The translations under genes and the position numbers were made by a program. 64,000 nt of DNA from Haplodiscus bocki (lineage: Eukaryota): assembly GCA_965655095.1 (NCBI GenBank), contig CBFHFQ010000011.1:248001-312000 (forward strand), given 5' to 3'. Shown piece by piece: positions 1 to 27,236 of this stretch; position 1 is the first letter of the stretch; each line of letters begins with the position of its first letter. The notes beneath the pieces were generated by a model. That model was not told the DNA's origin, searched no databases, and was given only the letters and a program-made list of their open reading frames with translations.

Positions 1-1251
1 GTGCACGGTTGAACAGGTGACTAGGGGAGGGTAGGAAGGGGGAAGTTGGAGATAAATGCTGTCGTCTTACGACGCGTTGTGTTTTGAATCCATGTTGCTA
101 CAACTATTGAAAAAAACTTTTCTTCCCTCGAACATATCTCTAACAAGATACAAGTCTACAGCAACATTGGCACCCCAAAACGCTCAACGCGTCCACCATG
201 GCCTATCTACGCGCCGTAGGCGCTGAAACAACCTTTAGAAGTATGTGTTTTTCGCAAGTACATTCACATCTCCCTGATCGGGAAGATGTAAATGTACTTG
301 ACTGTTTTACGTTTTGTGATCAATTTTTCCGTCAAAACCTCCTCAACTGTCAAACCTACGCACCAATACGGAAAATAAACCTGACGTTGCACGTTTACGC
401 GGCCTTTGTGTCAGATTCCGAGCGGGGGAACAAAAAAAATTGTTCAAAAATTTCGTGACGAAATTTTTGAATTTCTGTTGGGAACTATTAAAAATGTCAT
501 AACTCAACGTCAGGTAAAGATAGAGAGACATTTTTTAGCGCATTTTTCTCCTCGTTTCATGGGGTTTCCACATGAATTCACTTGCTAATCTAGTTGTGTG
601 GACGAAACTCTACTTTTTGCTGCCTGAAGATGAAGAAAACAAAATGTCAAAATTTTTTGTTCATTTTCTAAGTAAAATTACTTCTTAACCAGGAATCCCA
701 GGAAGCTGAAAACGCGGGAAACATGCCAAATGGTTTGTCCCGTGAATAATTTGGGCAGGGGTTGCCCCCTGTGCACGTCATTTTCAAAAAAATGGGGAAA
801 ATCGGCAGAGACAGAACCTGAAAAATCAAAAAATGCGCAGAAAATGACAATTTTCTCGAGAATTATTTGTGCTAGAAACCTCACAAACCCCTCTATACAC
901 GCTACAGGAAGTGCTGAACAAAAGTAATGTCCGGGACCATGCCGCTCCGAGCAATCCCTGTTGAGATGTAGGCCGTCAAAATAAAAAAAGCCAAAAAATG
1001 GCCATTTTTGGACCCAAAAATTGAGTTTTTGGTCAACAAAATGATTTTTGCCGGCAAAATGCCACTAGGGACTTGTTCTTATATCATCAAATGGGAGCCG
1101 TATGCAAAATTTGGGCCAATTCTATTGGCTCGTTCTCGAGATCGGGGTTAGACTGTAACATGGGCCTTACGTTAAATTTTGGATAGAGGACTCGGGCTGG
1201 GGGCCCTACCCCGCCCTCGAAAGTTAAGATGGACCGTTGGGGCCGACCACC
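1..1251 (+). mobile_element. Non-autonomous unit A1 (first ~5 nt lie outside the window)
   Basis: The window start gtgcacggttgaacaggtgactagggg matches 1257 onward in A2. The unit is colinear with A2 and ends in GACCACC. Confidence 0.8.
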
Positions 1252-2506
1252 TAGACGTGCACGGTTGAACAGGTGACTAGGGGCGAGGAGATGGGAGAGG
1301 CTAGTAAAAGTCTTTGTCGTCTCGCGACCCGTTGTGCTTTGAGTCCATGTTGCAAAAAAACGTCTACTAATTTTCTTTTTTTATCAAACATCCCTCAAAC
1401 AAAATACAACAGTAGAGCAGCATTGGCACTCCAAAACGCTCAGCGCGTCCACCGTGGCCTCCCTACGCGCCGTAGGCGCTGAAACAATCTTTAGAAGTAT
1501 GTGTTTTTCGCAAGTACATTCACATCTCCCTGATCGGGAAGATGTAAATGTACTTGACTGTATTACGTTTTGTGATCCATTTTCTCATCAAAATCAGTTC
1601 AATTGTCAAACCTACGCACCAATACGAAAAGCACACGTGACGTTGCATGTTTCTTTGCCCTTTACGTCAGATTCCGAGCAGTGGAACAAGAAAAAACGTT
1701 CAAAAATTTCGTTACGAAATTTTTGATATTCTGTCGGGAACTACTAAAAATGTCACAAGTCAACGTCTCGCAAAGATAGAGCAACGATCTTTAGCGCATT
1801 TTTCTCCTCGTTTCGTGGGCTTTTCACATGCATTCACTTGCTAATCTAGTTGTGTGGACGAAACTCTACTTTTTGCTGCCTGAACATGAAGAAAACAAAA
1901 TCTCAAAAATTTTTGTCCATTTTCTAAGTAAAATTACTTCTGAACCAGATACGCCGGGAACCTGAAAACGCGGGAAACATGCCAAATGGTTTGCGCTGTG
2001 AGAAATTTGGGCAGGGGTTGCCCCCTGTGCAGGTCAATTTCAAAAAAATTGCGAAATTCGGCAGAGACACTACCTGAAAAACCAAAAAATGCGCGGAAAA
2101 CGTCAATTTTCTCAACAAGTATTTGTGCTAGAAACCTCACAAACCCCTCTATACACGCTACAGGAAGTGCTGAACAAAAGTAGCGTCCGGGACCATGCCG
2201 CTCCGAGTAACCCCTGTTGAGATATAGGCCTTCAAAATTAAAAAAGCCAAAAAATGGCCATTTTTAGACCCAAAAATTGAGTTTTTGGTCAACAAAATGA
2301 AATTTGCGGGCAAAATGCCACTAGGGACTTGTTCTTATATCATCAAATGGGAGCCGCATGCAAAATTTGGGCCAATTCTATTGGCTCGTTCCCGAGATCG
2401 GGGGTAGACTGGAAAAAGCGCCTTAAGTTGATTTTTGAGAAAGGACTCGGGCTGGGGGCCCTACCCCGCCCTCGAAAGTTAAGATGGACCGTTGGGGCCG
2501 ACCACC
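1252..2506 (+). mobile_element. Non-autonomous unit A2 (1255 bp)
   Basis: Starts TAGACGTGCAC and ends ggggccGACCACC. Diverged copy of A1. Confidence 0.82.
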
Positions 2507-3934
2507 TAGTGCTGGAGGCTAAGGTCAAAATAGGGCCGTTGTCTGAGAGTTTTTGAACTTTTGCTATGCTAATTTCAAGGATATTTTGAAAATTGACACC
2601 CGACTGATAAACAACACTCCACGTGTCGTCGCACTGCCTCCACTTCGCCACGCTTCGTTCCGGCTGAGTGCGACGACACGTGGAGTGTTGTTTATCAGTC
2701 CGGCTGCTAGGGTTTGCCTGAGATACTGGCGATAGGCCACCTCGTTACCGAAACGGAGTCAAAATTTCAATTTTGACCTTTTTGTTTTGAAACAGTTCGC
2801 CGTTCCCATTGCCCTGCGGACGAATGGGAACGGCGTCACTCTAAGTGACTCCCTTTCAAGCACTCTAGGCGTTGTTGTGGAGGTCCTGCAACTTCATTTC
2901 AAGCACCCGTGAAGACAAAACTTGTCAAAATAGAAAAAATCTGAAACTTTTGAAAACCATTTTCATTGGTAGTGAGGTTTTGAAAATTGAGCGCGTAGTC
3001 TTTTTGACAAACTGGCTCTAATGACTTCAAACTTCACATACGCCTTCTTGCACATCAGGGGAACCATTTATTGTTGCAGGTTGCAATCCGTAAAGTGCCC
3101 CAGAAAAAAGTTACGGCCAGTTGAAACACAAGGTTTCTGATGAAAATCTTGTCAGGTAGGTCAAATTTCGTGCCGCAAAAAATGTCAAAAAAATGAAAAG
3201 TTTTGGAAAAACAAAAACACACCAGGTAACTACATTATATGGGCTAACTATTGCAATACAGAATGAACCAATATCTTTCGTATGAAAAAAATGCCGCCAA
3301 AATGCATTTTATGACCAAAATCTCGAGAAAGTGTGGTTTTTTCCAAAAAAGTGGTCATAACTTTTTCCCACTTTGTTTCAGAGACTTTTTTCCTGCTAAG
3401 CATTTGTTACCCTTAGGATGGCCAACAAGGGGTAGTACCGCCTTGAAACCGCTCCGACCAGTGTGTGACGAGTTACGGGACCCTAAACCTGAAAAACACC
3501 TCTCTGACACCCATTTTTGACCATTTTCAAATTATCATAAGTCAACCTCAAAATGTCGTAGAGCAGCGTTCTTTAGCTCGCTGTTCCCGCCGGTTGACGT
3601 ACTTTCCGCATGCAGCCACTTGCAATACTAGTTGTGTGGACGAAGTTGGACTTTTTGGGCAAAAACCGTCAAAAAATGGAAAATAGGCGAAATTGACGTC
3701 ACAAAATGGCCAAAAAATCCAACTTTAAGAAAAAATTCGGAAAAACGCCAGTAGGGATTGTTGATTAGCTTGCTCAAACCTAAAAACATGCAAAAATTCA
3801 GCCAATTCTATAGGCTCGTTTCCAAAATCGCATTTTTTTCCAGCGTTTTTTATAAGTAAGTTTTCCATAAGGGAAGCCGCTACCGGGTCCCGTCCCCGCG
3901 CGGCAGAAAAAGTTGGAAAAAATCCCGGACCACC
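2507..3934 (+). mobile_element. Non-autonomous unit B1 (1428 bp)
   Basis: Starts TAGTGCTGGAGGCTAAGGTC and ends cccgGACCACC. Contains 34-bp and 13-bp inverted repeats. Confidence 0.82.
2602..2700. repeat. Perfect 34-bp inverted repeat with a 31-nt loop, present in every B unit with 0-few mismatches
   Basis: GACTGATAAACAACACTCCACGTGTCGTCGCACT (2602-2635) is the exact reverse complement of 2667-2700. Confidence 0.95.
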
Positions 3935-5369
3935 TAGCGCTGGAGGCTAAGGTCAAAATAGGGCCGTTGTCTGAGAGTATTTTAACCTTTTCTATAGTTT
4001 TTTCAATGATTTTCTGCTAGATAAGTGACACCTGACTGTTAAACAACACTCCACGTGTCGTCGCACACCCTCCACTTCGCCACGCTCCGTTCCGGCTGAT
4101 TGCGACGACACGCGGAGTGTTGTTTATCAGTCCGGCAGCCAGGGGTTTGCCTGAGCTAGTGGCGAGAGACAACCTGGTTACCGAAACGGAGTCGAAATTT
4201 CAATTTTGACCTTTTTGTTTTGAAAGAGTTCGCCGTTCCCATTGCCCTGCGGACGAATGGGAACGGCGTCACTCTGAGTGACTCCCTTTCAAGCACTCTA
4301 GGTGTTGTCTTGGAGGTCCTGCAACTTCATTTGAACCACCCGTAAAGATAAAAAAATGTCAAAAATGGAAAAGTCTGAAATTTTTGAAAACCATTATCAA
4401 TGGTGGTGAAGTTTTGAAAATTGAGCGCGTCGTCTTTCTGACAAACTATTTCTAATGACTTGAAACTTCACATACGCGTTGATGCGCACTAGGGAAACTA
4501 TTTATGGCTGCTGGTAACATTCCGTAAAGTGCCCCAGAAAAAAGTTATGGCCAGTTGAAACACAAGGATTCTGATCAAAATGTTGTCAGGTAGGTCAAAT
4601 TTCGTGCCCCGAAAATTGTCCAAAAAAAGAATAGTTTTGGAAAAACAAAAACACACCAGCTAACTACATTATATGGGCTAACTATTGCAATACAGAATGA
4701 ACCAATATCTTTCGTACGAAAAAAATGCCGCCGAATTGCATTTTATGAGGAAAATTTCGGAAAAGTGTGGTTTTTTCCAAAAAAGTGGTCATAACTTTTT
4801 CCCACTTTGTTTTACAGACTTTTTTCCTGCTAAGCATTTGTTCACCTATGGATGGGAGACAAGGGGTAGTACCGCCTTGAAACCGCTCCGAACATTGTGT
4901 GACGAGTTACGGGACCTTAAACCTGAAAAACACCTCTCTGACACCCTTTTTTGACAAATTTCAAAAAATCGTAAGTCAACGTCAGAATGTCGTAGAGCAG
5001 CGTTCTTTAGCTCGTTGTTCCCACCGATTGACGTACTTTCCGCATGCAGCCACTTGCAATACTAGTTGTGTGGACGAAGTTGGACTTTTTGGCCAAAAAC
5101 CGTCAAAAAATGGAAAATAGGCGAAATTGACGTCACAAAATGGCCAAAAAAACCAACTTTAAGAAAAAATTCGGAAAAACGCCAGTAGGGATTGTTGATT
5201 AGCTTGCTCAAACCTAAAAACATGCAAAATTTCAGCCAATTCTATAGGCTCGTTTCCAAAATCGTATTTTTTTCAAGCAAAATTTATAAAGTCTATTTTC
5301 CATAAGGGAAGCCGCTACCGGGTCCCGTCCCCGCGCGGCCTGAGAGGTTAGGAAACATCCCGGACCACC
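3935..5369 (+). mobile_element. Non-autonomous unit B2 (1435 bp)
   Basis: Starts TAGCGCTGGAGGC and ends GACCACC. Appears identical to B5. Confidence 0.82.
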
Positions 5370-6803
5370 TAGCGCTGGAGGCTAAGGTCAAAATAGGGCC
5401 GTTGTCACGATGTTTTTTGCTTCTTTTATGTTAATTTCAATGATTTTCTTGTTAGAATACTGACACCCGACTGATAAACAACACTCCACGTGTCGTCGCA
5501 CTGCCTCCACTTCGCCACGCTCCGTTCCGGCTGAGTGCGACGACACGTGGAGTGCTGTTTATCAGTCTGAACGCAAATGCTTTGCATGACATAGTGGCGA
5601 AAGGCCATCTGATTACCTGAACGGAGTCAAGATTTCAATTTTGACCTTTTTGTTTTGAAAGAGTTCGCCGTTCCCATTGCCCTGCGGACGAATGGGAACG
5701 GCGTCACTCTGAGTGACTCCCTTTCAAGCACTCTAGATGTTGTCTTGGAGGTCCTGCAACTTCATTTGAACCACCCGTAAAGATAAAAAAATGTCAAAAA
5801 TGGAAAAGTCTGAATTTTTTGAAAACCTTTTTCAATGGTAGGGAAGTTTTGAAATTTGAGCACATAGTCTTTTCGACAAACTATCTCTAATGACTTGAAA
5901 CTTCACATACGCGTTGATGCGCACCAGGGGAACTATTTATGGCTGCTGGTAACATTCCGTAAAGTGCCCCAGAAAAAAGTTATGGCCAGTTGAAACACAA
6001 GGATTCTGATGAAAATGTTGTCAGGTAGGTCAAAATTCGTGCCCCGAAAATTGTCAAAAAAATGAAAAGTTTTGGAAAACCAAAAACACACCAGCTAATT
6101 ACATCATATGGGCTAACTATTGGAATACAGATTGAACCAATATCTTTTGTACGAAAAAAATGCCGCCGGATTGCATTTTATTAGGAAAATTTCGAAAAAC
6201 TGAGGTTTTTTCCAAAAAAGTGGTCATAACTTTTTCCCACTTTGTTTCACGGACTTTTTTCCTGCTAAGCATTTGTTCACCTATGGATAGGCAACAAGGG
6301 GTAGTAACGCCTTGAAACCGCTCCGACCAGTGTGTGACGAGTTACGGGACCCTAAACCTGAAAAACACCTCTCTGACACCCATTTTTGACCATTTTCAAA
6401 TTATCATAAGTCAACGTCAAAATGTCGTAGAGCAGCGTTCTTTAGCTCACTGTTCCCGCCGGTTGACGTACTTTCCGCATGCAGCCACTTGCAATACTAG
6501 TTGTGTGGACGAAGTTGGACTTTTTGGGCAAAAACCGTCAAAAAATGGAAAATAGGCGAAATTGACGTCACAAAATGGCCAAAAAATCCAACTTTAAGAA
6601 AAAATTCGGAAAAACACCAGTAGGGATTGTTGATTAGCTTGCTCAAACCTAAAAACATGCAAAAATTCAGCCAATTCTATAGGCTCGTTTCCAAAATCGC
6701 ATTTTTTTCCAGCGTTTTTTATAAGTAAGTTTTCCATAAGGGAAGCCGCTACCGGGTCCCGTCCCCGCGCGGCAGAAAAAGTTGGAAAAAATCCCGGACC
6801 ACC
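5370..6803 (+). mobile_element. Non-autonomous unit B3 (1434 bp)
   Basis: Same termini as the other B units. The middle is B2-like and the 3' part is B1-like. Confidence 0.82.
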
Positions 6804-7852
6804 CAGTGGAGGCACCGGTGAAAATCACCAGGTGGCGGTCACTGGAGAAGCTCCTCTGAAATATGAAATATTACTGATAGTCTTTTCTTCGAACACAGTA
6901 TTGAGTTTTGCAAAGGCCTGTTTAATAAATTGAAAATGAGCCTGTGAAATCTTCATTGAAATCTACAGGACATCAAAAACGAAGCTTGCAAACAGTTCGG
7001 CCCCGTTGTTTCTCCGTGTCGCTTCGCTAATCTACGAAACAACGGGGCGGGGCAATTAACAATTTGAAAGTTGAAATTTTTTTTTTTTAATTTTCGGGCC
7101 AAATTATGATTGTTTTTCCAAAAAACTTCAATATTTCAACCCACAAAAAAAACTAAAATTCAAAAAAACTATGCAGTAAGAAAAGTTTGGAAAAAAAACT
7201 GGACAAAACAAATGCCAGATATGAATTCTACAATCAAAACTGAGTGTTTCGAAAACTTTATTTTTTTTTCGAAAAATTCGTCATAACCGTCATTTCTTTC
7301 GGCGAAATGGCCAAAAATTTTTTATCGTCGAAAAATTATCTTTCAAGTTATGGAGTCAATTTCATACTGGAGGCACTCCAGAGCGCAAACTATGTACTTC
7401 AATGTGGGAGCTATGACGAAATGATCGATTTTCGGCATTTTTTTCCAAATTTGATGCGTCATATCTCCACACCTATGACGAGTTGGTAGAAAATTTTTTG
7501 CATGTGTGTAGCCAACAGGTATTATGCTTTACACAAAAAGTTTCGGCCAAATGCATGTGGTTACTTGCAGGGCTGTTGGTAGAAAACTGCAAAAAGAGGC
7601 CAAAAAATAGAATCATCTTGTCATAATTCCCCAACCATTTTTGCTAGAAGGATCTAACTTGCACCAATGTTCATAGAATTGTAAATTGTGCCTGCATGCA
7701 AAGTTTGAATCAAATCGTATGGGTGGGAGCTGAGATCGCTAATTCCCTATACCGTTTGTGCATATTTGTTTTTTCTTATATTTTAACGCTCGGCAAAGGG
7801 GCCGCTCCCCCGCCTCGCAAAGACTAATGTGGGGCGCGATCCCCTGACCACC
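6804..7852 (+). mobile_element. Non-autonomous unit C1 (1049 bp)
   Basis: Starts CAGTGGAGGCACCGGTGAAAATCACC and ends cccctGACCACC. The last ~575 bp are homologous to the 3' end of H. Confidence 0.85.
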
Positions 7853-8901
7853 CAGTGGAGGCACCGGTGAAAATCACCAGGTGGCGGTCACTGGTTATGC
7901 CATTCTGAAACTTGAACAAACTTGCTAGTGTTTTCTTTCAACACAGTAATGATTTTTGCAAATGCATTTTTTATATATTGATATTTAGCATGTGAAATCT
8001 TCACCGATCTGGATGAGACATCGATGATGGAGCTTGCAAACATTTTGGCCCCGTTGTTTCTCCGTGTCGCTCCGCTAGTCTACGAAACAACGGGGCGGGG
8101 CAATTAACAATTTGACTTTTGATAAATTTTTCCTCAAATTTGGACCAAATTATGATTGTTTTACCAAAAAACTTCAAAACTTCGACCCACAAAAAAGGTT
8201 AAATTTCGAGATAAACTTTGCAGTGAGAAAACTTTGTAGAGAAATTGAACAAAACAATTGCCAGATATGAATTCTACAAGTAAAACTGTGTTTTTGGAAA
8301 ATTTTATTTTTTTTCTTTCGAAAAGTTCGTCATAACCGTCATTTCTTTCGGCAAAATGGCCGAAAATTTTTTATCGTCGAAAAATTATCTTTCAAGTTAT
8401 GGAGTCAATTTCATACTGGAGCCACTCCAGAGCGCAAACTAGGTACTTCAATGTGAGAGATATGACGAAATGATCGATTTTTGGCATTTTTTTCCAAATT
8501 TGATCCGTCATATCTCAACACCTATGACGAGTTGGTCAAAAATTTTTTGCATGCGTGTAGCCCTTAGTTATTCTGCTTCACACGAAAAGTTTTGGCCAAA
8601 TGCATGTGGTTATTTGCAGGGCTCTCGGTAAAAAACTGCAAAATGAGGCCAAAAAACAGAATCATCCCGTCATAATTCCCCAACCAAATTGGCTAGAATG
8701 ATCTAACTTGCATCATTGTTCATAGAATTGTAAACTATGCCTGCATGCAAAGTTTCATCAAAATCGTATGGGTGGGAGCTGAGATCGCTAATTCCCTATA
8801 CCGTATGTGCATATTTGTTTTTTCTTATATTTTAACGCTCGGCAAAGGGGCCCCTCCCCCGCCTCGCAAGGACTAATGTGGGGCGCAATCCCCTGACCAC
8901 C
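7853..8901 (+). mobile_element. Non-autonomous unit C2 (1049 bp)
   Basis: Same termini as C1 and colinear with it. Confidence 0.85.
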
Positions 8902-9951
8902 CAGTGGAGGCACCGGTGAAAATCACCAGGTGGCGGTCACTGGAGAGGCACCTCTGAAACATGAACATTTGCTGATAGTCTTTTCTTCGAACACAGTATT
9001 GATTTTTGCAAACGCATGTTTTATGCATTGAAATTGAGCCTGTGAAATCTTCGTTGATGTCGAAAGGACATCGAGGATGAAACGTGCGAAAGTTTTGGCC
9101 CCGTTGTTTCTCCGTGTCGCTTCGCTAATCTACGAAACAACGGGGCGGGGCAATTAACACTTTGACTTGTGAGAAATTTTCCCTCACTTTTGGACCAAAT
9201 TAAATACTAATTTTTCCCCGGAAAAACTTCAAAACTTCAACCCACGAAAGATGCTAAATTTCAGAAAGCTACGCAGTAAGAGAATTCTGAAGAAAAACTG
9301 GAGAAAGAAATGCCAGATTTGAATTCCTGAATGAAAACTGGGTTTTTGGAAATTTTCAATTTTTTTTTCTGATTTTTTCGTCATAACCGTCATTTTTTTC
9401 GGCAAAATGGCCAAAAACTTTTTATCGTCGAAAAATTGTCTTTCAAGTTATGGAGTCAATTTCACAATGGAGCCGCTGCAGAACGCAATCTATGTGCATC
9501 AAAGTGGGAGGTATGACGAAAAGATCGATTTTCGGCATTTTTTTCCAACTTTGATCCGTCACATCTCAACACCTATGACGAGTTGGTAGAAAATCTTTTG
9601 CATGCGTTTAGCCCTTAGTTATTCTGCTTCACACGAAAAGTTTCGGCCAAATGCATGTGGTTACTTGCAGGGCTGTCGGTAAAAAACTGCAAAATGAGGC
9701 CAAAAAACAGAATCATCCCGTCATAATTCCTCAACCATTTTTGCTAGAATGATCTAACTTGCACCATTGTTCTTAGAATTGAAAGTTATGTCCGCATGCA
9801 AAGTTTGATCCAAATCGTATGGGTGGGAGCTGAGATCGCTATTTTCCTATACCGTATTTGCATAGAGTTGTTTCTTATATTTTAACGCGAGGCAAAGGGG
9901 CCCCTCCCCCGCCTCGCAAGGACTAATGTGGGGCGCGATCCCCTGACCACC
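8902..9951 (+). mobile_element. Non-autonomous unit C3 (1050 bp)
   Basis: Same termini as C1 and colinear with it. Followed by a B unit. Confidence 0.85.
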
Positions 9952-11387
9952 TAGCGCTGGAGGCTAAGGTCAAAATAGGGCCGTTGTCTGGTAGTATTTT
10001 AACTTTTGCTATAATAATTTAAATGATATTTTTGTTACAAAACTGACACCCGACTGATAAACAACACTCCACGTGTCGTCGCACTGCCTCCACTTCGCCA
10101 CGCTTCGTTCCGGCTGAGTGCGGCGACACGTGGAGCGTTGTTTATCAGTCTGGCCGCCTATTGTTTGCGTCAGCTACAGGCGATAGGCCACCTGGTTACC
10201 GGAACGGAGTGTAGATTTCAGTTTTGACCTTTTTGTTTTGAAAGAGTTCGCCGATCCCTTTGCCCTGCGGACGAATGGGAACGGCGTCACTCTGAGGGGC
10301 TTAACTTCTACTACTCTAGACGTTGCTTTGGAAGTCTTGCAACTTCATTTGAGCCACCCGTGAAGATAAAAAGTTGTCAAAATAGAAAAAATCTGAAATT
10401 TTTGAAAAACAATTTCAATGGTAGTGAAGTTTTGAAAATTGAGAGCATAGACTTTCTGACAAACTGCTTCTAAAGACTTGAAACTTCACATACGCCTTGC
10501 CGCCTACCAGGGGAGCTTTTTATAGCTGCTGGTACCAATCCATAAAGTGCCCCAGAAAAAAGTTATGGCCAGTTAAATCACAACGATTCTCATGAAAATC
10601 TTGTCAGGTGGGTCAAAATTCGTGGCCTGAAAAATGTCGAAAAAATGAAAATTTTTCGAAAAACAAAAACACACCGGCCAATTACATCCAATGGGCTAAC
10701 TATTGCAACACAGAACGAACCAATACCGTTAGTACGAAAAAAATGCCGCCAGATTGCATTTTATGAGCAAAATTTCGAAAAAGTGTGGTTTTTTTCAAAA
10801 AAGGGGTCATAACTTTTTCCCACTTTGTTTTGTGGACTTTTTCCCTGCTAAACATTTGTTGACCTATGGATGGGCAACAAGGGGTAGTACCGCCTTGAAA
10901 CCGCTGCGACCAGTGTGTGACGAGTTACGGGACCCTAAACCTCAAAAACACCTCTCTCACACCCTTTTTTGACCAATTTCAAAATATCATAAGTCAACGT
11001 CAAATTGCCGTAGAGCAGCGTTCTTTAGCTGGTTGTTCCTACCGAATGACGTACTTTCCGCATGCAGCCACTTGCAATACTAGTTGTGTGGACGAAGTTG
11101 GACTTTTTGGCCAAAAACCGTCAAAAAACGGAAAATAGGCGAAATTGACGTCACAAAATGGCAAAAAAATCCAACTTTAAGAAAAAATCCGGGAAAACGC
11201 CAGTAGGGAATGTTGATTAGCTTGCTCATACCTAAAAACATGCAAAATTTCAGCCAATTCTATAGGCTCATATCCAAAATCGTATTTTTTTCCACCCAAA
11301 AATTACAAGTAAGATTTCCCACAGGGGGTGCCGCTACCGGGTCCCTCCCCGGGCGGCCTGAGAGGTTGAAAAACGTTCCGGACCACC
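9952..11387 (+). mobile_element. Non-autonomous unit B4 (1436 bp)
   Basis: B termini. Near-identical to B6. Confidence 0.82.
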
Positions 11388-12822
11388 TAGCGCTGGAGGC
11401 TAAGGTCAAAATAGGGCCGTTGTCTGAGAGTATTTTAACCTTTTCTATAGTTTTTTCAATGATTTTCTGCTAGATAAGTGACACCTGACTGTTAAACAAC
11501 ACTCCACGTGTCGTCGCACACCCTCCACTTCGCCACGCTCCGTTCCGGCTGATTGCGACGACACGCGGAGTGTTGTTTATCAGTCCGGCAGCCAGGGGTT
11601 TGCCTGAGCTAGTGGCGAGAGACAACCTGGTTACCGAAACGGAGTCGAAATTTCAATTTTGACCTTTTTGTTTTGAAAGAGTTCGCCGTTCCCATTGCCC
11701 TGCGGACGAATGGGAACGGCGTCACTCTGAGTGACTCCCTTTCAAGCACTCTAGGTGTTGTCTTGGAGGTCCTGCAACTTCATTTGAACCACCCGTAAAG
11801 ATAAAAAAATGTCAAAAATGGAAAAGTCTGAAATTTTTGAAAACCATTATCAATGGTGGTGAAGTTTTGAAAATTGAGCGCGTCGTCTTTCTGACAAACT
11901 ATTTCTAATGACTTGAAACTTCACATACGCGTTGATGCGCACTAGGGAAACTATTTATGGCTGCTGGTAACATTCCGTAAAGTGCCCCAGAAAAAAGTTA
12001 TGGCCAGTTGAAACACAAGGATTCTGATCAAAATGTTGTCAGGTAGGTCAAATTTCGTGCCCCGAAAATTGTCCAAAAAAAGAATAGTTTTGGAAAAACA
12101 AAAACACACCAGCTAACTACATTATATGGGCTAACTATTGCAATACAGAATGAACCAATATCTTTCGTACGAAAAAAATGCCGCCGAATTGCATTTTATG
12201 AGGAAAATTTCGGAAAAGTGTGGTTTTTTCCAAAAAAGTGGTCATAACTTTTTCCCACTTTGTTTTACAGACTTTTTTCCTGCTAAGCATTTGTTCACCT
12301 ATGGATGGGAGACAAGGGGTAGTACCGCCTTGAAACCGCTCCGAACATTGTGTGACGAGTTACGGGACCTTAAACCTGAAAAACACCTCTCTGACACCCT
12401 TTTTTGACAAATTTCAAAAAATCGTAAGTCAACGTCAGAATGTCGTAGAGCAGCGTTCTTTAGCTCGTTGTTCCCACCGATTGACGTACTTTCCGCATGC
12501 AGCCACTTGCAATACTAGTTGTGTGGACGAAGTTGGACTTTTTGGCCAAAAACCGTCAAAAAATGGAAAATAGGCGAAATTGACGTCACAAAATGGCCAA
12601 AAAAACCAACTTTAAGAAAAAATTCGGAAAAACGCCAGTAGGGATTGTTGATTAGCTTGCTCAAACCTAAAAACATGCAAAATTTCAGCCAATTCTATAG
12701 GCTCGTTTCCAAAATCGTATTTTTTTCAAGCAAAATTTATAAAGTCTATTTTCCATAAGGGAAGCCGCTACCGGGTCCCGTCCCCGCGCGGCCTGAGAGG
12801 TTAGGAAACATCCCGGACCACC
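11388..12822 (+). mobile_element. Non-autonomous unit B5 (1435 bp)
   Basis: B termini. Appears identical to B2 at offset 7453, and the incidental ORF translations at 4685 and 12138 are identical. Confidence 0.82.
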
Positions 12823-14258
12823 TAGCGCTGGAGGCTAAGGTCAAAATAGGGCCGTTGTCTGGTAGTATTTTAACTTTTGCTATAATAATTTAAATGATAT
12901 TTTTGTTACAAAACTGACACCCGACTGATAAACAACACTCCACGTGTCGTCGCACTGCCTCCACTTCGCCACGCTTCGTTCCGGCTGAGTGCGACGACAC
13001 GTGGAGCGTTGTTTATCAGTCTGGCCGCCTATTGTTTGCGTCAGCTACAGGCGATAGGCCACCTGGTTACCGGAACGGAGTGTAGATTTCAGTTTTGACC
13101 TTTTTGTTTTGAAAGAGTTCGCCGATCCCATTGCCCTGCGGACGAATGGGAACGGCGTCACTCTGAGGGGCTTAACTTCTACTACTCTAGACGTTGCTTT
13201 GGAAGTCTTGCAACTTCATTTGAGCCACCCGTGAAGATAAAAAGTTGTCAAAATAGAAAAAATCTGAAATTTTTGAAAAACAATTTCAATGGTAGTGAAG
13301 TTTTGAAAATTGAGAGCATAGACTTTCTGACAAACTGCTTCTAAAGACTTGAAACTTCACATACGCCTTGCCGCCTACCAGGGGAGCTTTTTATAGCTGC
13401 TGGTACCAATCCATAAAGTGCCCCAGAAAAAAGTTATGGCCAGTTAAATCACAACGATTCTCATGAAAATCTTGTCAGGTGGGTCAAAATTCGTGGCCTG
13501 AAAAATGTCGAAAAAATGAAAATTTTTCGAAAAACAAAAACACACCGGCCAATTACATCCAATGGGCTAACTATTGCAACACAGAACGAACCAATACCGT
13601 TAGTACGAAAAAAATGCCGCCAGATTGCATTTTATGAGCAAAATTTCGAAAAAGTGTGGTTTTTTTCAAAAAAGGGGTCATAACTTTTTCCCACTTTGTT
13701 TTGTGGACTTTTTCCCTGCTAAACATTTGTTGACCTATGGATGGGCAACAAGGGGTAGTACCGCCTTGAAACCGCTGCGACCAGTGTGTGACGAGTTACG
13801 GGACCCTAAACCTCAAAAACACCTCTCTCACACCCTTTTTTGACCAATTTCAAAATATCATAAGTCAACGTCAAATTGCCGTAGAGCAGCGTTCTTTAGC
13901 TGGTTGTTCCTACCGAATGACGTACTTTCCGCATGCAGCCACTTGCAATACTAGTTGTGTGGACGAAGTTGGACTTTTTGGCCAAAAACCGTCAAAAAAC
14001 GGAAAATAGGCGAAATTGACGTCACAAAATGGCAAAAAAATCCAACTTTAAGAAAAAATCCGGGAAAACGCCAGTAGGGAATGTTGATTAGCTTGCTCAT
14101 ACCTAAAAACATGCAAAATTTCAGCCAATTCTATAGGCTCATTTCCAAAATCGTATTTTTTTCCACCCAAAAATTACAAGTAAGATTTCCCACAGGGGGT
14201 GCCGCTACCGGGTCCCTCCCCGGGCGGCCTGAGAGGTTGAAAAACGTTCCGGACCACC
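12823..14258 (+). mobile_element. Non-autonomous unit B6 (1436 bp)
   Basis: B termini. Near-identical to B4 at offset 2871. Confidence 0.82.
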
Positions 14259-17200
14259 CAGTGGAGGCGACGGTGAAAATTACCAGAAGGCGTGAGGTTT
14301 GAATCGGTGTTTCTTTCGTGTTCAGATTTATTTTCTGCGACAAACGGGCGTAGTCCTGTCATTGTGCGTCAGTCAACGTGAAGCCGTGAAGCAGTATGTT
14401 GTCAATTTTTGTGACGAAGACGAAAAATGCCTTTTGGGTGGCAAATATTGACAGAATTATCGTCGTCAATCCTTATTTCAGATTGTTGTTCTAACTTCTC
14501 TGTCTCCTGCATGAGAGGTAACTTTGTTTTCCTGTAGACGCACTGGATTTGCCGATGCAGTTTGGGAAAGGTGCAGTTAGGCGGTGAATACGAAGGGGCC
14601 GGAAGTATGCTGAGCAATGAACAGTTGTTATCTTGGAACAAAATATGTTTTTGTTAAAATTTAAGTTTAACAGTTACTTTTTAATCTTTTCTTCAGCTAC
14701 CAAAATTCTGGGTTTTTGTCCAATTCATTAGTAAAATTTATCTGTACTTAAAATATGAAAGGTGAGTAAAGTTTTGTTTTAACTCTAAGTTTTTATCCAT
14801 ACTTTTGCTGTTTCTTTTGGAGCTGTTCCCAGAAATTTTTTTGTCTCATTGCTGTTGTTGTTTCTTTAAACAAAGAAAAAACTTGACTGGTGTTCAATTA
14901 CGCACTCCAAAGTTATGTTTGGATTCTGCCTTCGTGGAAAAAACAATAATTGTTTTGTTGTTTCTAATGTTTTCTGCAGGGATGAACTTGACAATGCAGC
15001 TTTGCAATGGGATACTAACATTTAGTGAACAAAAATCAGGATATTGGAAGCGGGTGGTCTCCACGAACCTTAAGCGTTGTTTGAACCTCGAAAATCACGA
15101 GCAAGTTTCTCCAGTTTCTCATACCTATGAGATTCATTTTCAAGGTTTTCAATGATTGTTATAACTTACATTGGTTTTTTGAAAAATGTGTCTGATTAAT
15201 ATCAACCACCCATTCCGCCGCTTTCGAAAATGAATTTCTGAATAGTTTTGTTGAATGAAATTTTAATGTTCAAAAAAAAAGAGGCAACGGAATGATGACT
15301 TGTTTTTGATCGACACCAAATGCTATTTTTTTTCCGGGCTCAGGTGGAGTTTTTTATTGGAAACGTTGCACTACGCATCTGGTAGGTAATTTATTTTTTT
15401 GTTGTTTTGTGTTTTAATGGATAACACGATTCATCACAATCATTTCTTCAATTAAGGCTTCCTGCGCTGTAGCTGCTTCTTTTTGTTTGAATCAAGCGTT
15501 TCTTGACGGGAAAGGTCCGGTTTCCCCTTGTGTTGGCATGAAGTTTCACTAACCAATAATGTTTTTCAATCAGCACATAAGTAGAAAAGTAAAGATGGCT
15601 ACTGCACGCTTCCTCGTGGCTTCATGTTTTCGCGTTAATTCGCTTTCTTCACATTTGTTTACAACGTTGTCCGAGCCAATTTTCCCTAAATAATTACGTT
15701 TTTTATTCATGGCTTCCCATTGACATGACTGTCCTGCTTTTACGGTCAACATTTTTAAGAAAAGCACCCAACCTTTTTTTTCCGCAATAATGTCTTCCTA
15801 AAAATAATTTCCTTTTTTGAAGACTGTACTGACAATTCGAAATTTCCGATATTTTCGCGAAACTAATAAGTTTCGTTAGTCCAGATTGAGTAACGAACGG
15901 GGCATTTCCTCAGCTATTTAATTCCATCACTTGTTCAACATTTTACCGAATTTCAGATTCGTCCTTCCCTTCTTTGACTTTTTCTTCCTGATTTTAAATT
16001 ATAGAATTTCCAGAAGCAAATTATTGTTTTTTATTGTAGAGCTTATTATTTTATTCACAATGTTTTTCTAATTTTGCTAATTCCCATCCTGATACTCTGA
16101 TCCCCCAGAGTCATTTGGAATTTTGGTGGACGGAAGGCAATTCACTTCTGCAACCTTATGCTAGTTCTCTTACGACTGTTCACATTAGCATATGTTTCTC
16201 CGCAGACATATATAAAACATCGTTAATGTTTGTAAAGTGATTGATTAAAAATAAAAACGTATTTCATCTTTAACTTCATAAATATCTTTTATATGCGTAA
16301 CTTTTTCTCACACGCAATGGCTGGCTTTGGCAGCCTTTTTCTGCGGAATAATATTTCCGTTAACTGCCAATTTTCTCACTTGGACTAGCCTGGTTGTTTA
16401 AAAGTCAATGCTTTCGAATCTTAAGGTCCACTTTGAGGCTCTTTCTTTCCTGCAGTGAAGATTTTATGAAATGGCTCCACTGCCAGAAATTCAAAATTTC
16501 AAATATGCTTTACTTGTAAAAGATCATCGGGAAGTGGATGTTCATCTAATTGTCAGTAGACGGAATCAAGACAATAAGAAGCCAAGGCGGGATAGCCATA
16601 TTGATCAATGACTTTAACCGATTCAATTTTTCAAGTTCAAGATGCAAACTATATCACAACGATTAACTGTGTCTGAATGATGCTAGGCAGTTGGAATTGC
16701 ACACAACTATGGCACTTTTTGAACATCCTTGATCCATTCTTTTTATGTTTTCATCAAGAGATTTCGTATCTGGAGCCTTGAAATTTTCCCCTCTGTTCCA
16801 TCAACGTGCCTGTTCATCTATCACCGTTGACGAAAGGACATGAAATAAAACAACGAATAGAGTTTGCGGAATTTGTTACTAAGCTCTTGATTTCAAGAAG
16901 CTTTCCAACGTTGAAGTAATTTAAAAAAAATACTAAATTCATTTTTATGACGCCTAAAGACTGTCAGTAGTGGTTTACGTTGTGTATTTCAATGAAATAG
17001 GCCGTGAATATATGATTTTGAGAATTTGTCGGAGAGAAAAGGTGAATTCGACGGAGAATGATGGAAATGTAGAGCTTCCCATTGTTCCTCCCAACTGAAA
17101 CAAAATTTGTACCAACAATTATCTGTACCCCCTTATTTGTATGAAATTGTTATTGGATGCTTTTTTTAGACTGTCAAATTCTTGAGCTTTTTCGTATCTT

Positions 17201-17551
17201 AAATCTGGTCTCTTTTCGTCTTCTATACGACATTTTCTTCGAAACCTAGACTGATCTTTTCAACTTTACATCTGTTAAAACAAGCTACTTACTTCATAGA
17301 TGAAACAAAGGTACTGATTTTTTTGGGCCCTTGAATATAAATTTTTTTACCTGCAAAAACTGAATTGAATTGATGCCTGGTTTACACCAGTGAAAAAGAC
17401 TACGAACCTCTGAAAACTTTGTTGGGTCTTAATTTACCCAACTTCAGTTACTTGGTGCCATTTTTTGCAAAAAGTTTTCAAGTTCCTAAGTGTTTTGTGA
17501 AACTGAAAAATTACGTTGTGTTCGATTGAAGTCAATACAACTGCTGAGGAA

Positions 17552-17589
17552 GCCTTGGTTTTGCTCCTGTGTGTTCGCAAAACCAAGGC
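17552..17589. promoter_or_regulatory. 13-bp stem-loop ~260 nt upstream of the RepHel ATG (copies at 38773-38810 and 57919-57956); function unknown
   Basis: GCCTTGGTTTTGC-N12-GCAAAACCAAGGC. The stem is identical in H1 and H2 while the loop differs. Confidence 0.5.
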
Positions 17590-17850
17590 GTCTGGTTTAT
17601 GAATGCTTGGAATTGAATTATGATTTTTTACAGTACTGCCTTATCTTTTTCGCGGCATCGAACCTGAAATTTAATTAGGCAGGCAACGGTTTGTAATTGA
17701 ACCGTAAAAGACTTCGCTCAAACGACAATTTGATGTATTTACCTATTATACGAATTTCCCTGCTAATTCTTCAACGTGTGTTTGTATTGTAACATCTTGT
17801 TTTTTCATATAGTCATGATCCCACTGAATTAATGTCTGTTGTGTTTTACA

Positions 17851-20800
17851 ATGTCAAAACAAAACAACAAAGGAAACTTGAAGCGTCGTCGTTGTACTTC
17901 CTGTGGACAATTTGTTGGAGAACATCATGTGTGTGCAAAATCAATTGAGCTGGAACTTCAGGTCAACGAGCCTTTAGGAATTTTATACAAAATTCCCGAT
18001 GCATCAGTTGCTGTGTCACCTACCGCGAGAACGGAGATACACAGCTCGCTGAACACTTTGGGGTTGATGGACTTTTTAAAGCCTACAAAAACAGCTATCG
18101 GAAACGATACAGTTATCTGCTCCATGCAGCCAGTCCGGGTAACAGCAGTGCTTGGGGACGGTAATTGCCTTTTTTTTCTCTGGCAGTTGCTCTGGGACTG
18201 TCACATGAATGTGGCCCAATCATACGTAACATTATTGTCAGCCACATGAATTTAATCAGTTTCCCCCCTAATAGCCTGCAAACATCTGTTTACTCCGATG
18301 ACTTTCCCAACCAACATCGTGTTTTGAGTTGTACTTCCGTCGATGAGTACCTCCGCGAATCTAGAATGGCAGAAAATGGTGTTTTTGGAAGCTGTGTAGA
18401 AATATATTCATTTTGCCAAATCTTCAAAGTAGATGTTTTTTTGTACCATGTTCCATTCAAATCCTGGATGATTTATGAATGTTCCTCCAACGTAAATAGA
18501 AAAGGAATTTTCATTCAACAAAACCGGAATGCAAATCACTTCGAGGTGATAACAGAGCTGGTTTCAATTGGTCCTGAAAGCTCCAGCTTATCGCAAGTTG
18601 CATCAATTAATCGCCCTCCTTCTCAATCAAGCGAAACTAATCATTGGAGTCAAGCCTTGCAGAACTGCGAAGGAACTGAAACTGAACCAGCTTCGAAAAA
18701 AAGCAAAGTCAATTCTGATTACACCTGGGAAGAGCACCCTGACCCGCTCGCATTAAGTCTCTTCGCCAATTCTGTATCTACCAAAATGAAGAAACTTTCG
18801 GCCTTGGAAACATTATCAACAAATTCAACGAACCTCCCAAAGAACGATTGTTCACAAATGCTGGAACCCCCATGTTTTGACTTTTCCCCAACAGATAGTG
18901 TTTCAGGAAATATGCACACGAACGGCGAGTGCCCCAATTTGGGCGGATGTGACTGTTGCGCAAAATGCATGCGCCAGTCAACAGTTCTTTACCCTTTAAA
19001 GTTGAAGAGGAAGAATAAATTTGATCTTAAAAACCGTGTGTTTGGAAACAAGCTAACGGAGCCCATTGTTGTTTTATGTAAGCTCTGTCTTCTCTATTGC
19101 ACAACCGAAAGTTATGATTGGTACAATGCTTGGCCCTCTGTGTTTTTCAGCCTATTGAGTGATCAAGACATGCCAGTTAGAACCCAAATGGATATTTTGT
19201 CTTTGTTACCTTGGGAATTGAGACAGCAGTGGATGACATCCATGCACTACTTTCCCCTGTGCGTTCAAAGATGTCTAAGTCGGAAACGGATTGCTGGGAA
19301 ATGTTCCGTTGATGGGACGCTTCGTTTGCGTCGTTTCCACGAACTCATGAAAACCTTGAAGCAGACTAACATTGCTCTTGCCCTGGACAATGAACCTTAT
19401 CCCAACGTCCGCTGCCCATATGGGTGCTGGTGTTTCATTGAAGAATCAGGTTGGATACCCGCAAATCACTTCATCAATCTTTTTGAAAGAAACTTTACCT
19501 CGTTTCAGTCCTCCAGCTTCCTGCATCTAAGAGGAATTAGGTCCAACTTTTTGACACCATTTGTGTCCCTGCGCCAGTTCTTAGTAGCGACTACAGTGCG
19601 AGTTGATGAAAAAGCGGGACTCGTGGTTCAGGCTTGCTCCAGGCACTCAAGAGGCTCCAGTGTGCAGTACTTTCATCCGCCATCACATCCTTCGCTGGTG
19701 CGAACTACAGTGAATTATGAAGAACGTCTTAGTGCCATCGCACCCACATTGTCGTTCATCTCAAGCATAAAAGCCAACTTCGCCAGTCATACGTACCAAT
19801 TGCTAAGAAGTGTTGGCTCTTACAGTGGAATGAGCACAGTCCGATTGAAGCGGAAAACGCGCTGGGATTTCACTAGTGACATTTTGTATCATGCTGAAGG
19901 CGTCGCTTGTCATTTCAGAGAAGACATCAAAACAATGATTCGTGAGTGGGTAAGACAGGGTAAAATCCTTGATGACGTAGCTTCGGGAATGCTGGATTAT
20001 GTACCGGACAAAAAGAAAGTCAACAGTTGTTTGTCACAGGCCACTTCAATAGACTTACAAACATGCCTGGACCTCACGAAAATAGTGGAAATGAATGAAA
20101 AAGAATATCTCAACAATGTTGAGTCGTTGAGTTGTTACACTCTCGTTCATGGGAATGATGATTACGGCTGCTCTCCACCTCCTCTGGAAAATAGAGTAAG
20201 CATAGTATCGTGGATTGTGCAGGCTGCAGTTTGTGTTTCCCCAATACTTTGTCGATCCTTAGTGAACTCATCAAAATACAGTGTGACACTTAGGCCTTTG
20301 TTCACTTTACTCAGGAAAGTGTTGCTTGGCACCGCAAGAATGAATACAGCAAAAGTTTTATGGCTTGTTAGAAAATCCGAACAAGCAGTCTCAGCTGTCA
20401 TAGAACAAACTAACACTGATGACAAAACAGAGGGAACAACCGACTGTTGTTGTTTTGTAGGAGCAAGGTTTCTTTCAGAAATTTGTGACACCATTCAACA
20501 CGTTCCCTTAAACAAACGGAAGAATATCGGTTCAGCCACAACAGAGAAAGTTTCGTACAACATGACTCATGCCATTTTTACGACAGGTTCCCCGAAAAAT
20601 TTGCGGAACAAGGTGAAACCACCGTTAACCCTGATTATTTCCGACAATGAATTCGAATTGATTGCAGTTGGAACGAAGGATGGAAGCAGCAAGGGAGAAC
20701 CGAGGTGGTTGGTTAGACATGGAGGGAGGTTTCAGGGGTTTTGACTCATTGAGAAAAGTAAAAAATTTGCCACAAAAACAGAAGGCTCTCCGACTGATGC

Positions 20801-25907: not shown

Positions 25908-26483
25908 AAAGTCGTACTTTAGGAGAAAGCTGCCCAAAAACTTATGGATTAGTTTGAGATAATTGTTTTACTTGCACACAAACTTCCTTGCCTTGACAGC
26001 CATACGCATCGACTGCATAGTGATGCAATGGTGAATTTCTCTTTATGTTATGCTGCAACCGCATCGGCTGCAGAGTGATGTACCAAGTAGCACGTGCAGC
26101 AACATCAACCTTTTTGCTGGAAAATATAATGCCTCGACTGCATAGTGTTGCATTATCTATTTTGCAGTTGAGATGATTTGTTGCTAATCACTTGTCTGTG
26201 TCTGTTTAATTCATTAGTTTGATGGGATTGACTTTCACTGAACCTGATTTGATGGACTTTGATTTTGGAAGCACTAGAAAGAGTCCATTTAAAAAAGCGC
26301 CGTTAATTTTGGACAATAGAAATCAGCTAACTTTCAAGTTTTTTCGGGAAAAAATATAATCATACGTTAAATGACGAATTTTGACATTGTTGATTGAAGC
26401 ACTCTTGTTACTGTATCCCCGTATTCGGGGATGATACCTGAAGCTGCAGAAACCGACGTTTTTCACAGTGCTTCCAGATCATT

Positions 26484-27236
26484 ATGGCTCATTTGATCAT
26501 AACCGACTCTCTGGGCGTACAACTGGAAGGTGTGCTTGAAAATTTGGCAGTTAAAAGTTTTCCTGGCGCCAGAGCGGCGGACCGACGTGTAACGAGTTTC
26601 CTGGAAAATTTGCGGCGCCGCTTCCAATCCATTACAATTTTCATTGGAGGGAATGGCCTTTCCAATTGGGGCCGGCGTCCAGCTGAAAGTCCAGAACAGG
26701 TAAAGCTTAAGTGATGGTTCATGGGGTTACTGTTTGCAAAATCAAATTAGACGCTAGTAAAATTTGGAACGTTTTTGTGTATTGTTAAACCCTTTATTGA
26801 AGTACGTTTAGTAAAAATCTAGGAAAACGTTGTTTTCAATAGTAAGTCTTTCTACTGGTACTTTAACTGGTGCTACTTGCAAACTATAATTGAACCGTAA
26901 CTTTGTGTTTTTAATATCTCAACAGTACTTCATTTGCTTTTGTTGTTTTATTATTAGGTGTTCCATGATATCTTGAACCTTGTGAGAATTGCCGAGAGAA
27001 AATGCGACAAAGTATACTGCCTGGGCTTAGTAATGCGAAGCCGACCGTGCTTCCTTGCAGTGAAAGAAATAAACCGAATGCTGCGAACATCCATTGGACA
27101 CTACACTTACGTTTCCGTGTCATCTAAGATGTCATCTGAAAGAAATCTTAAAGACGGAGTGCATCTGTCTCAGCACGGCGTGACGAACATCCTGTGGATT
27201 ATAAAAAGACGGATTTTAGGTAACAAATGTGTCTAG
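26484..27236 (+). CDS. Two-exon SGNH/GDSL-type hydrolase, 164 aa; join(26484..26699,26958..27236)
   Basis: Donor CAG|GTAAAG at 26699/26700 and acceptor ttattattAG|GTG at 26957/26958, phase 0. The joined protein has SGNH blocks LIITDS, FPGA, IGGNG and KDGVHLS. Confidence 0.82.

What the first reader, a model, noticed from the sequence alone, without database searches (positions are those of the whole stretch)
1245..14261. Heterologous junctions confine the crossover to the 7-nt core GACCACC
The base after GACCACC follows the downstream unit: B>B gives TAG (3935), B>C gives CAG (6804), C>C gives CAG (7853) and C>B gives TAG (9952). The bases before the core follow the upstream unit (A ggcc, B ccg, C cct). 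The break therefore lies within or at the edges of GACCACC. The + strand CTAG at A/B junctions is not the 3' end of the upstream unit. I saw no indel or filler at any of the 19 junctions, which suggests a precise enzymatic join.
Basis: seen in the sequence. Interest (0 to 1): 0.75.

Follow-up and report, generated by a model that had tools for sequence, protein, structure and literature searches.

The report
Helitrons that insert into Helitron junctions
This 64-kb stretch consists only of rolling-circle transposons (Helitrons) of five families joined head to tail at one shared 7-base word, and whole units likely jump precisely into the joints between resident copies, a self-targeting habit that I did not find described for Helitrons.

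Summary
All 19 plus-strand GACCACC are unit junctions in an unbroken 64-kb head-to-tail array (A A B B B C C C B B B H D C D C H D C H). H is a 17-kb Helitron-like element (OTU-Rep-PIF1-GIY-YIG plus an RPA-like gene); A-D are non-coding. Flanks sort with unit family and no junction has an indel. Only 3 of 19 junctions narrow the break to 7 nt; one gives 10 nt, six give 19-20 nt, nine cannot bracket it. New evidence: two near-identical B copies share identity from core to core, with the nearest differences at -1 and +1, and a perfect copy of another B sits between them, like a filled site. Best reading (0.55): the Rep transposase treats resident junctions as targets. Nick position and strand are untested, and no array edge was seen. 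The transposase belongs to a large divergent group with non-canonical HUH motif spacing. New variant of a known kind.

The parts
1..64000 (.). Uninterrupted head-to-tail array of 20 units (two cut by the window ends), no spacer DNA between units
1..2499 (.). Two A units (1-1244, cut; 1245-2499), non-coding, 87.5% identical
2500..6796 (.). Three B units (2500-3927, 3928-5362, 5363-6796), 90-92% identical
6797..9944 (.). Three C units (6797-7845, 7846-8894, 8895-9944); share 41 nt of one end and about 600 nt of the other with H
9945..14251 (.). Three B units X-Y-X': 9945-11380 and 12816-14251 differ at 3 sites; 11381-12815 is identical to 3928-5362 (filled-site pattern)
6797..6803 (+). Core GACCACC at B>C junction, crossover bracketed to 7 nt
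9945..9951 (+). Core at C>B junction, bracketed to 7 nt
14252..14258 (+). Core at B>H junction, bracketed to 7 nt
2500..2509 (+). Core plus TAG at A>B junction, bracketed to 10 nt. Other cores start at 1245, 3928, 5363, 7846, 8895, 11381, 12816, 31289, 32350, 33391, 34448, 35489, 52534, 53591, 54636
9887..9917 (.). Example of the GC-rich hairpin found 23-29 nt on the plus-strand upstream side of the core in all five families
6803..6845 (.). Hairpin on the other side of the core in C and D only; its inner stem (6813-6834) ends 10 nt before the minus-strand CTGG
14252..31288 (+). H1, 17-kb coding element; RepHel frame interrupted by a frameshift near 18165-18249 and a stop at 20742-20744
31289..35488 (.). 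D (31289-32349), C (32350-33390), D (33391-34447), C (34448-35488)
35489..52533 (+). H2, 17-kb element with open RepHel frame
39072..47129 (+). 2685-aa transposase: OTU-like, Helitron Rep (HUH at 43422-43430, tyrosines at 43929 and 43941), PIF1 helicase, GIY-YIG
49894..50904 (+). 336-aa predicted OB-fold, RPA-like single-stranded-DNA-binding protein (copy in H1 at 28681-29691)
52534..54635 (.). D (52534-53590, identical to 33391-34447) and C (53591-54635)
54636..64000 (+). H3, cut by window end, 99.85% identical to H2, stop at 59583-59585

Best explanation
The window is a head-to-tail array of five Helitron-like families joined at GACCACC, and the Rep transposase of the 17-kb element (or of sister families) likely builds it by inserting whole core-to-core units into junctions between resident units. 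Shown: unit layout, sorting of flanks, no indels, copies bounded by cores, a two-tyrosine HUH Rep with PIF1 helicase. Inferred from Helraiser work: a unit is nicked at one core, peeled off, closed at the next core into a circle with one junction. Inferred here: a resident junction has the same sequence as a circle junction, so Rep would nick it at the same bond and exchange strands; this adds one unit and one core, leaves no target duplication, and regenerates two targets. Strand is open. I put about 55% on the minus strand (3' end CTRG, nick between the 6th and 7th base of GACCACC, genes reversed relative to the ends) and about 45% on the plus strand (hairpin then core as 3' end, nick within or just after the core). 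Homologous exchange between same-family units also acts on the array.
For: Three junctions bracket the break to 7 nt and one to 10 nt although neighbours share 190-2281 other exact words of 7 nt or more. Units 9945-11380 and 12816-14251 differ at 3 of 1443 nt and their flanks first differ at -1 and +1 of the cores; 11381-12815 equals 3928-5362 at 1442 of 1442 nt, with the nearest flank differences at -4 and +38, and lies between those two; H2/H3 identity starts at -4. For homologous exchange to make the X-Y-X' pattern both crossovers would have to fall in windows of about 47-49 nt of 1442, while an 82-nt perfect tract lies inside the units. The only strand-transfer enzyme found in H is Rep: Pfam Helitron_like_N 4.8e-7, PIF1 9e-11, GIY-YIG 1.2e-9; HUH and YxxxY align with Helraiser; the model's only PDB match at E<=0.001 is Helraiser 7lcc, E 1.2e-6. 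RepHel has 148 synonymous and 157 non-synonymous changes in 2400 codons, the RPA-like gene 16 and 7, which points to purifying selection. A, B and C/D/H share remote homology in the last 130-230 nt (E 2e-7 to 2e-9). Families cluster (5 runs in 20 units, p 0.0004; p 0.007 with five duplicate units dropped) although neighbours are only 85-92% alike, as expected if each transposase prefers its own ends. Helraiser circles have precise head-to-tail junctions and are proposed to be re-nicked there (PMC5876387).
Against: One window, no array edge, no empty allele and no dispersed copy were seen, so insertion is reconstructed, not observed. Only 3 of 19 junctions give the 7-nt bracket. One of four near-identical pairs is not core-bounded: the D copies 33391/52534 stay identical 134 nt upstream and 193 nt downstream. 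B units 2500 and 5363 share an identical last 180 nt, so homologous exchange does occur. The upstream hairpin folds better than shuffles in only 2 of 11 distinct versions (z -2.2 to -3.0), and its covariation is modest (score 0.152, 3 of 500 shuffles, but a slid register scores 0.169). The hairpin next to CTRG is absent from H, A and B (z about +1). None of the 37 metagenome loci of distant relatives showed a GACCACC junction or an array; most do not reach their ends.
Confidence: 0.55

Rival explanations
1. Short-motif targeting. The transposase inserts next to any GACCACC-like word, and arrays arise only because each element's own end recreates that word (as Paramecium Helitrons end in CCAA and insert in C4A2 repeats). 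No recognition of the resident hairpin is needed.
For: Gives the same junction sequences. Precedent in PMC13085455 sections 14 and 18 and in the tetranucleotide target of IS91 (PMC10288648).
Against: Four minus-strand GACCACC inside H copies (two distinct sites) are unoccupied, which is weak. A 7-mer would be common in host DNA, yet 64 kb hold 20 units and no host DNA. Family clustering needs more than a shared 7-mer.
Confidence: 0.2
2. Arrays are built off the chromosome: rolling-circle read-through and fusion of circles at their junctions make mixed multimers, which integrate as blocks; multi-unit pieces also move by bypass of an end.
For: Concatemers and end bypass are documented for Helitrons (PMC5876387, PMC4778049). 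The D-C-H order recurs, and D identity runs into its neighbours.
Against: Read-through gives identical neighbours; adjacent same-family units here are 85-92% identical. The identical pairs are not adjacent. It still needs Rep-made joins at the core.
Confidence: 0.13
3. Host recombination alone (unequal exchange, gene conversion, microhomology joining) shuffled an old satellite of Helitron origin.
For: Mosaic B and C units; the 44-46-nt perfect tract at B starts is the second longest between B subtypes.
Against: B and C/H have no BLAST-level homology and hundreds of equally long chance words, yet 3 of 3 joins use the core. Transposase genes are under purifying selection and one frame is open.
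Confidence: 0.07
4. The fused GIY-YIG nuclease, not Rep, picks and cuts the junction, and repair copies a unit in (homing-like).
For: GIY-YIG is fused in 96 of 139 fetched relatives that reach the helicase end. Copying by repair could explain the D pair's extended identity.
Against: Repair copying needs flank homology and co-converts flanks; the 9945/12816 pair has unrelated neighbours and differences at -1 and +1.
Confidence: 0.04
5. Assembly artefact joining repeats at a shared word.
For: No listed contig spans a heterologous junction in the displayed part.
Against: Units are mostly 85-93% alike and each has its own sequence; a 7-nt overlap is far below assembler word sizes; three runs cover 30 of 30 bins.
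Confidence: 0.01

Closest known systems
Helitron1 / HLE1 (Helraiser; PMC4778049, PMC5876387)
   Same: Two-tyrosine HUH Rep fused to PIF1; no target duplication; head-to-tail junctions; a CTRR on the minus strand with a hairpin ending 10 nt before it in C and D (Helraiser: 11 nt).
   Different: Helraiser inserts at AT in host DNA; its junction is CTAG-TC, here GTGG lies between CTRG and TC. HUH motif 2 has two extra residues; GIY-YIG fused; 2685 aa versus 1496.
Helitron2 / Helentron / HLE2 (PMC3627910, PMC4067079, PMC5148889, PMC11417382)
   Same: OTU and RPA-like cargo; hairpins at both ends in C and D; aromatic-x-R before motif 2; reversed ORFs occur; a GIY-YIG domain is reported in the Sphagnum family HelenSM92; self-insertion and occasional tandem copies in fungi.
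   Different: No TT target, no AP endonuclease, no serine before PHxH, no clear 8-15-bp asymmetric inverted repeats in all families; fungal self-insertions are sporadic and nested, not at a fixed junction word.
Paramecium Helitrons (PMC13085455)
   Same: Very long transposase ORF, divergent from HLE1/HLE2, strict orientation, end motif (CCAA) equal to the target motif, variable ORF orientation.
   Different: They insert in telomeric C4A2 repeats that separate copies; here units abut with no host repeat. Protein kinship not tested.
Replitrons (PMC10288648)
   Same: HUH transposons with a short direct repeat at both ends (each unit here lies between two GACCACC).
   Different: Y1 Rep without helicase; dispersed copies at RG targets with fuzzy ends.
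Centromeric tandem Helitrons of plants and Meloidogyne (PMC13404089; Xiong 2016 seen only as cited)
   Same: Long tandem Helitron tracts with autonomous and non-autonomous members.
   Different: Described as rolling-circle repeats of truncated elements or as elements between satellite arrays, not as full-length units of several families exchanged at one word.

Membership tests
Helitron superfamily | Rep (HUH, two tyrosines) fused to a PIF1 helicase | tested here: met
   Pfam; motif alignment to Helraiser; fold match 7lcc
Helitron superfamily | No target-site duplication | tested here: inconclusive
   One core per unit and no filler; without an array edge the core could be terminus or duplicated target
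Helitron superfamily | Non-autonomous partners share both ends with a coding element | tested here: met
   C shares 41 nt and about 600 nt with H; D 41 nt and 66% over 600 nt; A and B only remote end homology
Helitron superfamily | Rolling-circle transposition with circular intermediate | not testable with these tools
   Circle junctions equal array junctions in sequence; needs experiment
HLE1 (Helitron1) | 5'-TC and CTRR-3' termini | tested here: inconclusive
   Minus strand shows CTRG and TC at 19 of 19 junctions but separated by GTGG, so only one can be terminal
HLE1 (Helitron1) | Hairpin about 11 nt before the 3' end | tested here: inconclusive
   Present in C and D on the minus-strand reading, absent in A, B, H
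HLE1 (Helitron1) | Insertion between A and T | tested here: not met
   No AT step within GACCACCYAG at any of 19 junctions
HLE1 (Helitron1) | Rep motif 2 ExQxRGLPHxH (PMC4067079) | tested here: not met
   Window EWQEETAGFPHLH; 6, 7 or 8 residues between Q and P-position in 152, 1 and 30 of 183 relatives with the motif, none with 4
HLE2 (Helitron2/Helentron) | Insertion at TT, T-rich ends | tested here: not met
HLE2 (Helitron2/Helentron) | [quoted passage not shown] | tested here: inconclusive
   By eye only: a 7-bp pairing with G-T wobbles between minus-strand start and subterminal end in C and D; not seen in H
HLE2 (Helitron2/Helentron) | Motif 2 with aromatic-x-R and GSPHxH | tested here: not met
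   W-x-R present, serine absent, spacing differs
Helentron | C-terminal AP endonuclease | tested here: not met
   GIY-YIG instead
HLE1 or HLE2 | Placement in the RepHel tree | not tested
   No labelled reference sequences were available as stored proteins
Paramecium Helitron clade | RepHel kinship and telomeric target | tested here: inconclusive
   No telomeric repeats between units; motif searches in 7 readable supplements found nothing; two supplements unreadable
Replitron | Y1 Rep without helicase | tested here: not met
   Y2 Rep with PIF1
Tyrosine-recombinase cassette arrays (7-bp core, recalled) | A tyrosine recombinase gene | tested here: inconclusive
   None among ORFs of 120 aa or more nor in 32 ORFs of related loci; short frames in H flanks read by eye only; a spliced or remote gene is not excluded

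The most novel reading that the evidence does not exclude
An undescribed, widespread third lineage of giant Helitrons (hundreds of protein clusters, Rep-PIF1-GIY-YIG) whose transposase works as a site-specific integrase on its own end-to-end junction, so that several families share one landing pad and build self-extending cassette arrays that spare host genes and may form a chromosome compartment.
Probability: 0.3. Interest if true: 0.85.

Novelty: new variant of a known kind. Interest (0 to 1): 0.64.

Why it matters
Helitrons are described as inserting at AT or TT dinucleotides, and how the transposase chooses and joins its target is little known. Here target and circle junction would be the same sequence, which gives a defined 10-nt substrate for a cleavage and strand-transfer assay and an open reading frame to express. 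It would be a second case of strict target specificity in Helitrons after the telomere-targeted Paramecium group, a way for transposons to make their own safe haven, and a route to large multi-family satellite blocks. A site-specific enzyme that moves 17-kb units without target duplication could interest genome engineers.

Tried and rejected
Sequencing runs: 15 holders in 7 studies, no RNA holder listed; small shares in coral and reef metagenomes are not habitat evidence beyond the runs laid. Laying contigs of 4 runs on 1100-10100: none of the 15 joints shown (47 more hidden) and none of the 24 loose ends shown (838 hidden) lies at a core; one contig piece stops at 5362, the base before a core, with 359 nt running on to a partner not shown; contigs were too fragmented to test junctions. 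Viral contigs: no relative; two GC-rich pattern hits without similarity to the window, taken as chance. Prokaryote genomes: one 2.5-kb contig, likely host contamination, nothing further in that genome. 37 metagenome loci at 26-38% identity: no GACCACC junction or array. Rfam on 1-39000: two sub-threshold hits; no tRNA. Tyrosine recombinase looked for because of the 7-nt core, not found. A first structure string was one column off (corrected in 108). Ten literature searches gave no report of multi-family Helitron arrays joined at a fixed word; the library lacks most subscription journals and Repbase. Folding energies could not settle the strand: the upstream hairpin is as stable or more stable on the minus strand in 11 of 11 versions, the C/D hairpin more stable on the plus strand in 4 of 4.
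Full report
What is there. Cutting the window at its 19 plus-strand GACCACC gives 20 units and nothing else: A A B B B C C C B B B H D C D C H D C H, all in one orientation. A is 1.25 kb, B 1.43 kb, C and D 1.05 kb, H 17 kb. H encodes a 2685-aa protein with OTU-like, Helitron Rep, PIF1 and GIY-YIG domains. Its HUH and YxxxY motifs align with Helraiser, and the predicted Rep fold has Helraiser as its only PDB match at E<=0.001. A second gene is predicted to be an RPA-like OB-fold protein. H2 has an open frame; H1 and H3 are interrupted. Between H1 and H2 synonymous changes are about as many as non-synonymous ones in RepHel (148 and 157 in 2400 codons) and exceed them in the RPA-like gene (16 and 7). 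C shares 41 nt of one end and about 600 nt of the other with H; D is a sister; A and B share only remote end homology. The host is a eukaryote, inferred from these genes; no whole genome is held. Summed contig depth in three runs is high over 30 of 30 bins, and the nearest protein cluster has 165 members.

Checking the observation. The stated bases and coordinates are correct. Chance gives about 1.6 cores per strand, and GACCACCYAG with one mismatch allowed finds exactly the 19 junctions. Hairpin-to-core spacing is fixed within A, B, C and H, and D differs only further upstream, so no junction has an indel. The bracket is 7 nt at 3 junctions (6797, 9945, 14252), 10 nt at 2500, 19-20 nt at six D-containing junctions, one-sided at two C>H junctions and undefined at seven same-family junctions. 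The title is therefore true of 3 of 12 heterologous junctions and compatible with the rest.

Is the join enzymatic? Heterologous neighbours share 256 (A/B), 225 and 190 (B/C) and 2281 (B/H) other exact words of 7 nt or more, up to 17 nt, yet the four informative joins use the core. Recent copies give independent evidence. B units at 9945 and 12816 differ at 3 sites, have different neighbours on both sides, and their flanks first differ at -1 and +1 of the cores. The B unit at 11381 is identical to the one at 3928 and lies between those two, the pattern of a filled site with one extra core; nearest flank differences are -4 and +38. H2/H3 identity begins at -4. Against this, the identical D pair stays identical 134 nt upstream and 193 nt downstream, and two B units share only their last 180 nt, so homologous exchange also works on the array. 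Families cluster (p 0.0004 in three groups; 0.007 after dropping five duplicate units; 0.053 with five families) although neighbours are 85-92% alike, which fits family-biased insertion better than read-through.

Which strand? On the minus strand all 19 junctions read CTRG-GTGG-TC. The only variable base of the 10-nt block is the first R of the canonical CTRR end, and in C and D a hairpin ends 10 nt before it (Helraiser: 11 nt, PMC4778049 passages). The long shared end would then be the 5' end, as in Chlamydomonas Helitron2 partners, and reversed ORFs are known (PMC3627910 passages; PMC13085455 section 14). This reading predicts a nick between the 6th and 7th base of the core, inside the observed bracket. 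Against it, H, A and B lack that hairpin, and GTGG separates CTRG from TC. On the plus strand, the ORFs point forward and a GC-rich hairpin in all five families lies 23-29 nt before the core like a terminator, but it beats shuffles in only 2 of 11 versions. I put about 55 to 45 on minus versus plus.

Mechanism. Helraiser is nicked at its left end, closed at its right end into circles with a precise junction, and is proposed to be re-nicked at that junction (PMC5876387 passages). A resident junction in this array has the same sequence as a circle junction. The most economical model is that Rep nicks it at the same bond and exchanges strands, adding one unit and one core and regenerating targets (0.55). 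Rivals: bare short-motif targeting with ends that recreate the motif (0.2), mixed multimers formed off the chromosome (0.13), host recombination alone (0.07), GIY-YIG-driven homing (0.04), artefact (0.01). Every enzymatic step is inferred.

Relatives. A Rep-region search found 799 clusters at 50% identity with E<=0.001. In 183 fetched proteins with the motif, 6-8 residues lie where HLE1 and HLE2 have 4 (canonical motif from PMC4067079 passages). GIY-YIG is fused in 96 of 139 that reach the helicase end. 37 metagenome loci at 26-38% identity carry the RPA-like gene in several cases but showed no GACCACC junction or array; most stop short of their ends. Whether the junction habit extends beyond this host is unknown.

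Comparison with print. It works like a Helitron and meets the protein definition. It fails the AT target and motif-2 tests for HLE1 and the TT target, serine and AP-endonuclease tests for HLE2/Helentron; no tree with labelled references was made. GIY-YIG is reported in one Sphagnum HLE2 family (PMC11417382: abstract, sections 4 and 22, passages, supplement search). Sporadic self-insertion and tandem copies are reported in fungi (PMC5148889: abstract, section 14, passages). Paramecium Helitrons end in the motif they target (PMC13085455: abstract, section 14, first part of 18, passages, searches in 7 supplements; two supplements, one with the terminal alignments, were too large to read and may bear on kinship). 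Replitrons have short direct terminal repeats (PMC10288648 passages). Tandem Helitrons occur in centromeres and in Xenopus (PMC13404089 and PMC12001565 passages; Xiong 2016 seen only as a citation). A centromere atlas preprint had nothing specific (passages). Ten searches found no multi-family array joined at a fixed word; subscription journals and Repbase are not covered.

Verdict. Real and more than chance; a precise join at the core is well supported within this window, self-targeted insertion is the likely cause, and nick site, strand and genome-wide generality are open. New variant of a known kind, interest 0.64.

Noticed in passing
window 47707-47922 and about 48191-48580 (+): Two frames separated by a GT...AG intron-like stretch read like an SGNH/GDSL hydrolase (TDS, PG, IGGN, DGVH motifs; family recalled). 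Pfam gave no SGNH hit on either piece.
   Followed up: partly
window 6807-6828 and equivalents in B, D, H: A motif TGGAGGC-nnn-GGT[CG]AAAAT/AAATT follows the core in B, C, D and H, shifted by 3 nt in B; joins between B and C/H fall before it.
   Followed up: partly
alignment A2 columns 25-26 and 50-51 (e.g. window 9889-9890): The upstream hairpin has either full pairing (3 of 13 rows) or a TC/TC mismatch (5 C/D rows, and 2 A rows in a shifted register) that reads as tandem G-A pairs on the minus strand; such pairs are stable in DNA (recalled). No single-change intermediates among 8 C/D/H rows.
   Followed up: partly
protein clusters: Members of different RepHel clusters share contig lengths (66165, 343377, 453529 for clusters 1 and 2; 60055 for clusters 1 and 7, about 38% identical), suggesting that divergent coding families lie together. 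Cluster 1 has 165 members.
   Followed up: no
window 2599-2703 and other B units; 1511-1556 in A: Long internal inverted repeats (37-nt arms in B, a 46-nt palindrome in A, about 225 nt imperfect in C/D).
   Followed up: no
L008:66-120: In a relative at 26% identity a GC-rich stretch is followed about 20 nt later by GGTACCTAG, resembling hairpin-spacer-ACCTAG, 1.75 kb before the RepHel frame. Single case.
   Followed up: partly
L024 last 60 nt; L027 last 330 nt: Degenerate TTAGGG/CCCTAA-like words near the ends of two distant relatives, a possible hint of telomeric location.
   Followed up: no
L005, L010, L015, L021, L023, L028: Distant relatives carry the RPA-like gene (7 loci, either strand) and several further 200-1465-aa ORFs with no Pfam match.
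   Followed up: partly
L015:5781-5914 and 12731-12864: 134-nt inverted repeats enclose 7 kb that includes a second Rep fragment.
   Followed up: no
P0032: A relative is recorded from the hagfish Myxine glutinosa (UniRef name), so the group reaches vertebrates.
   Followed up: no
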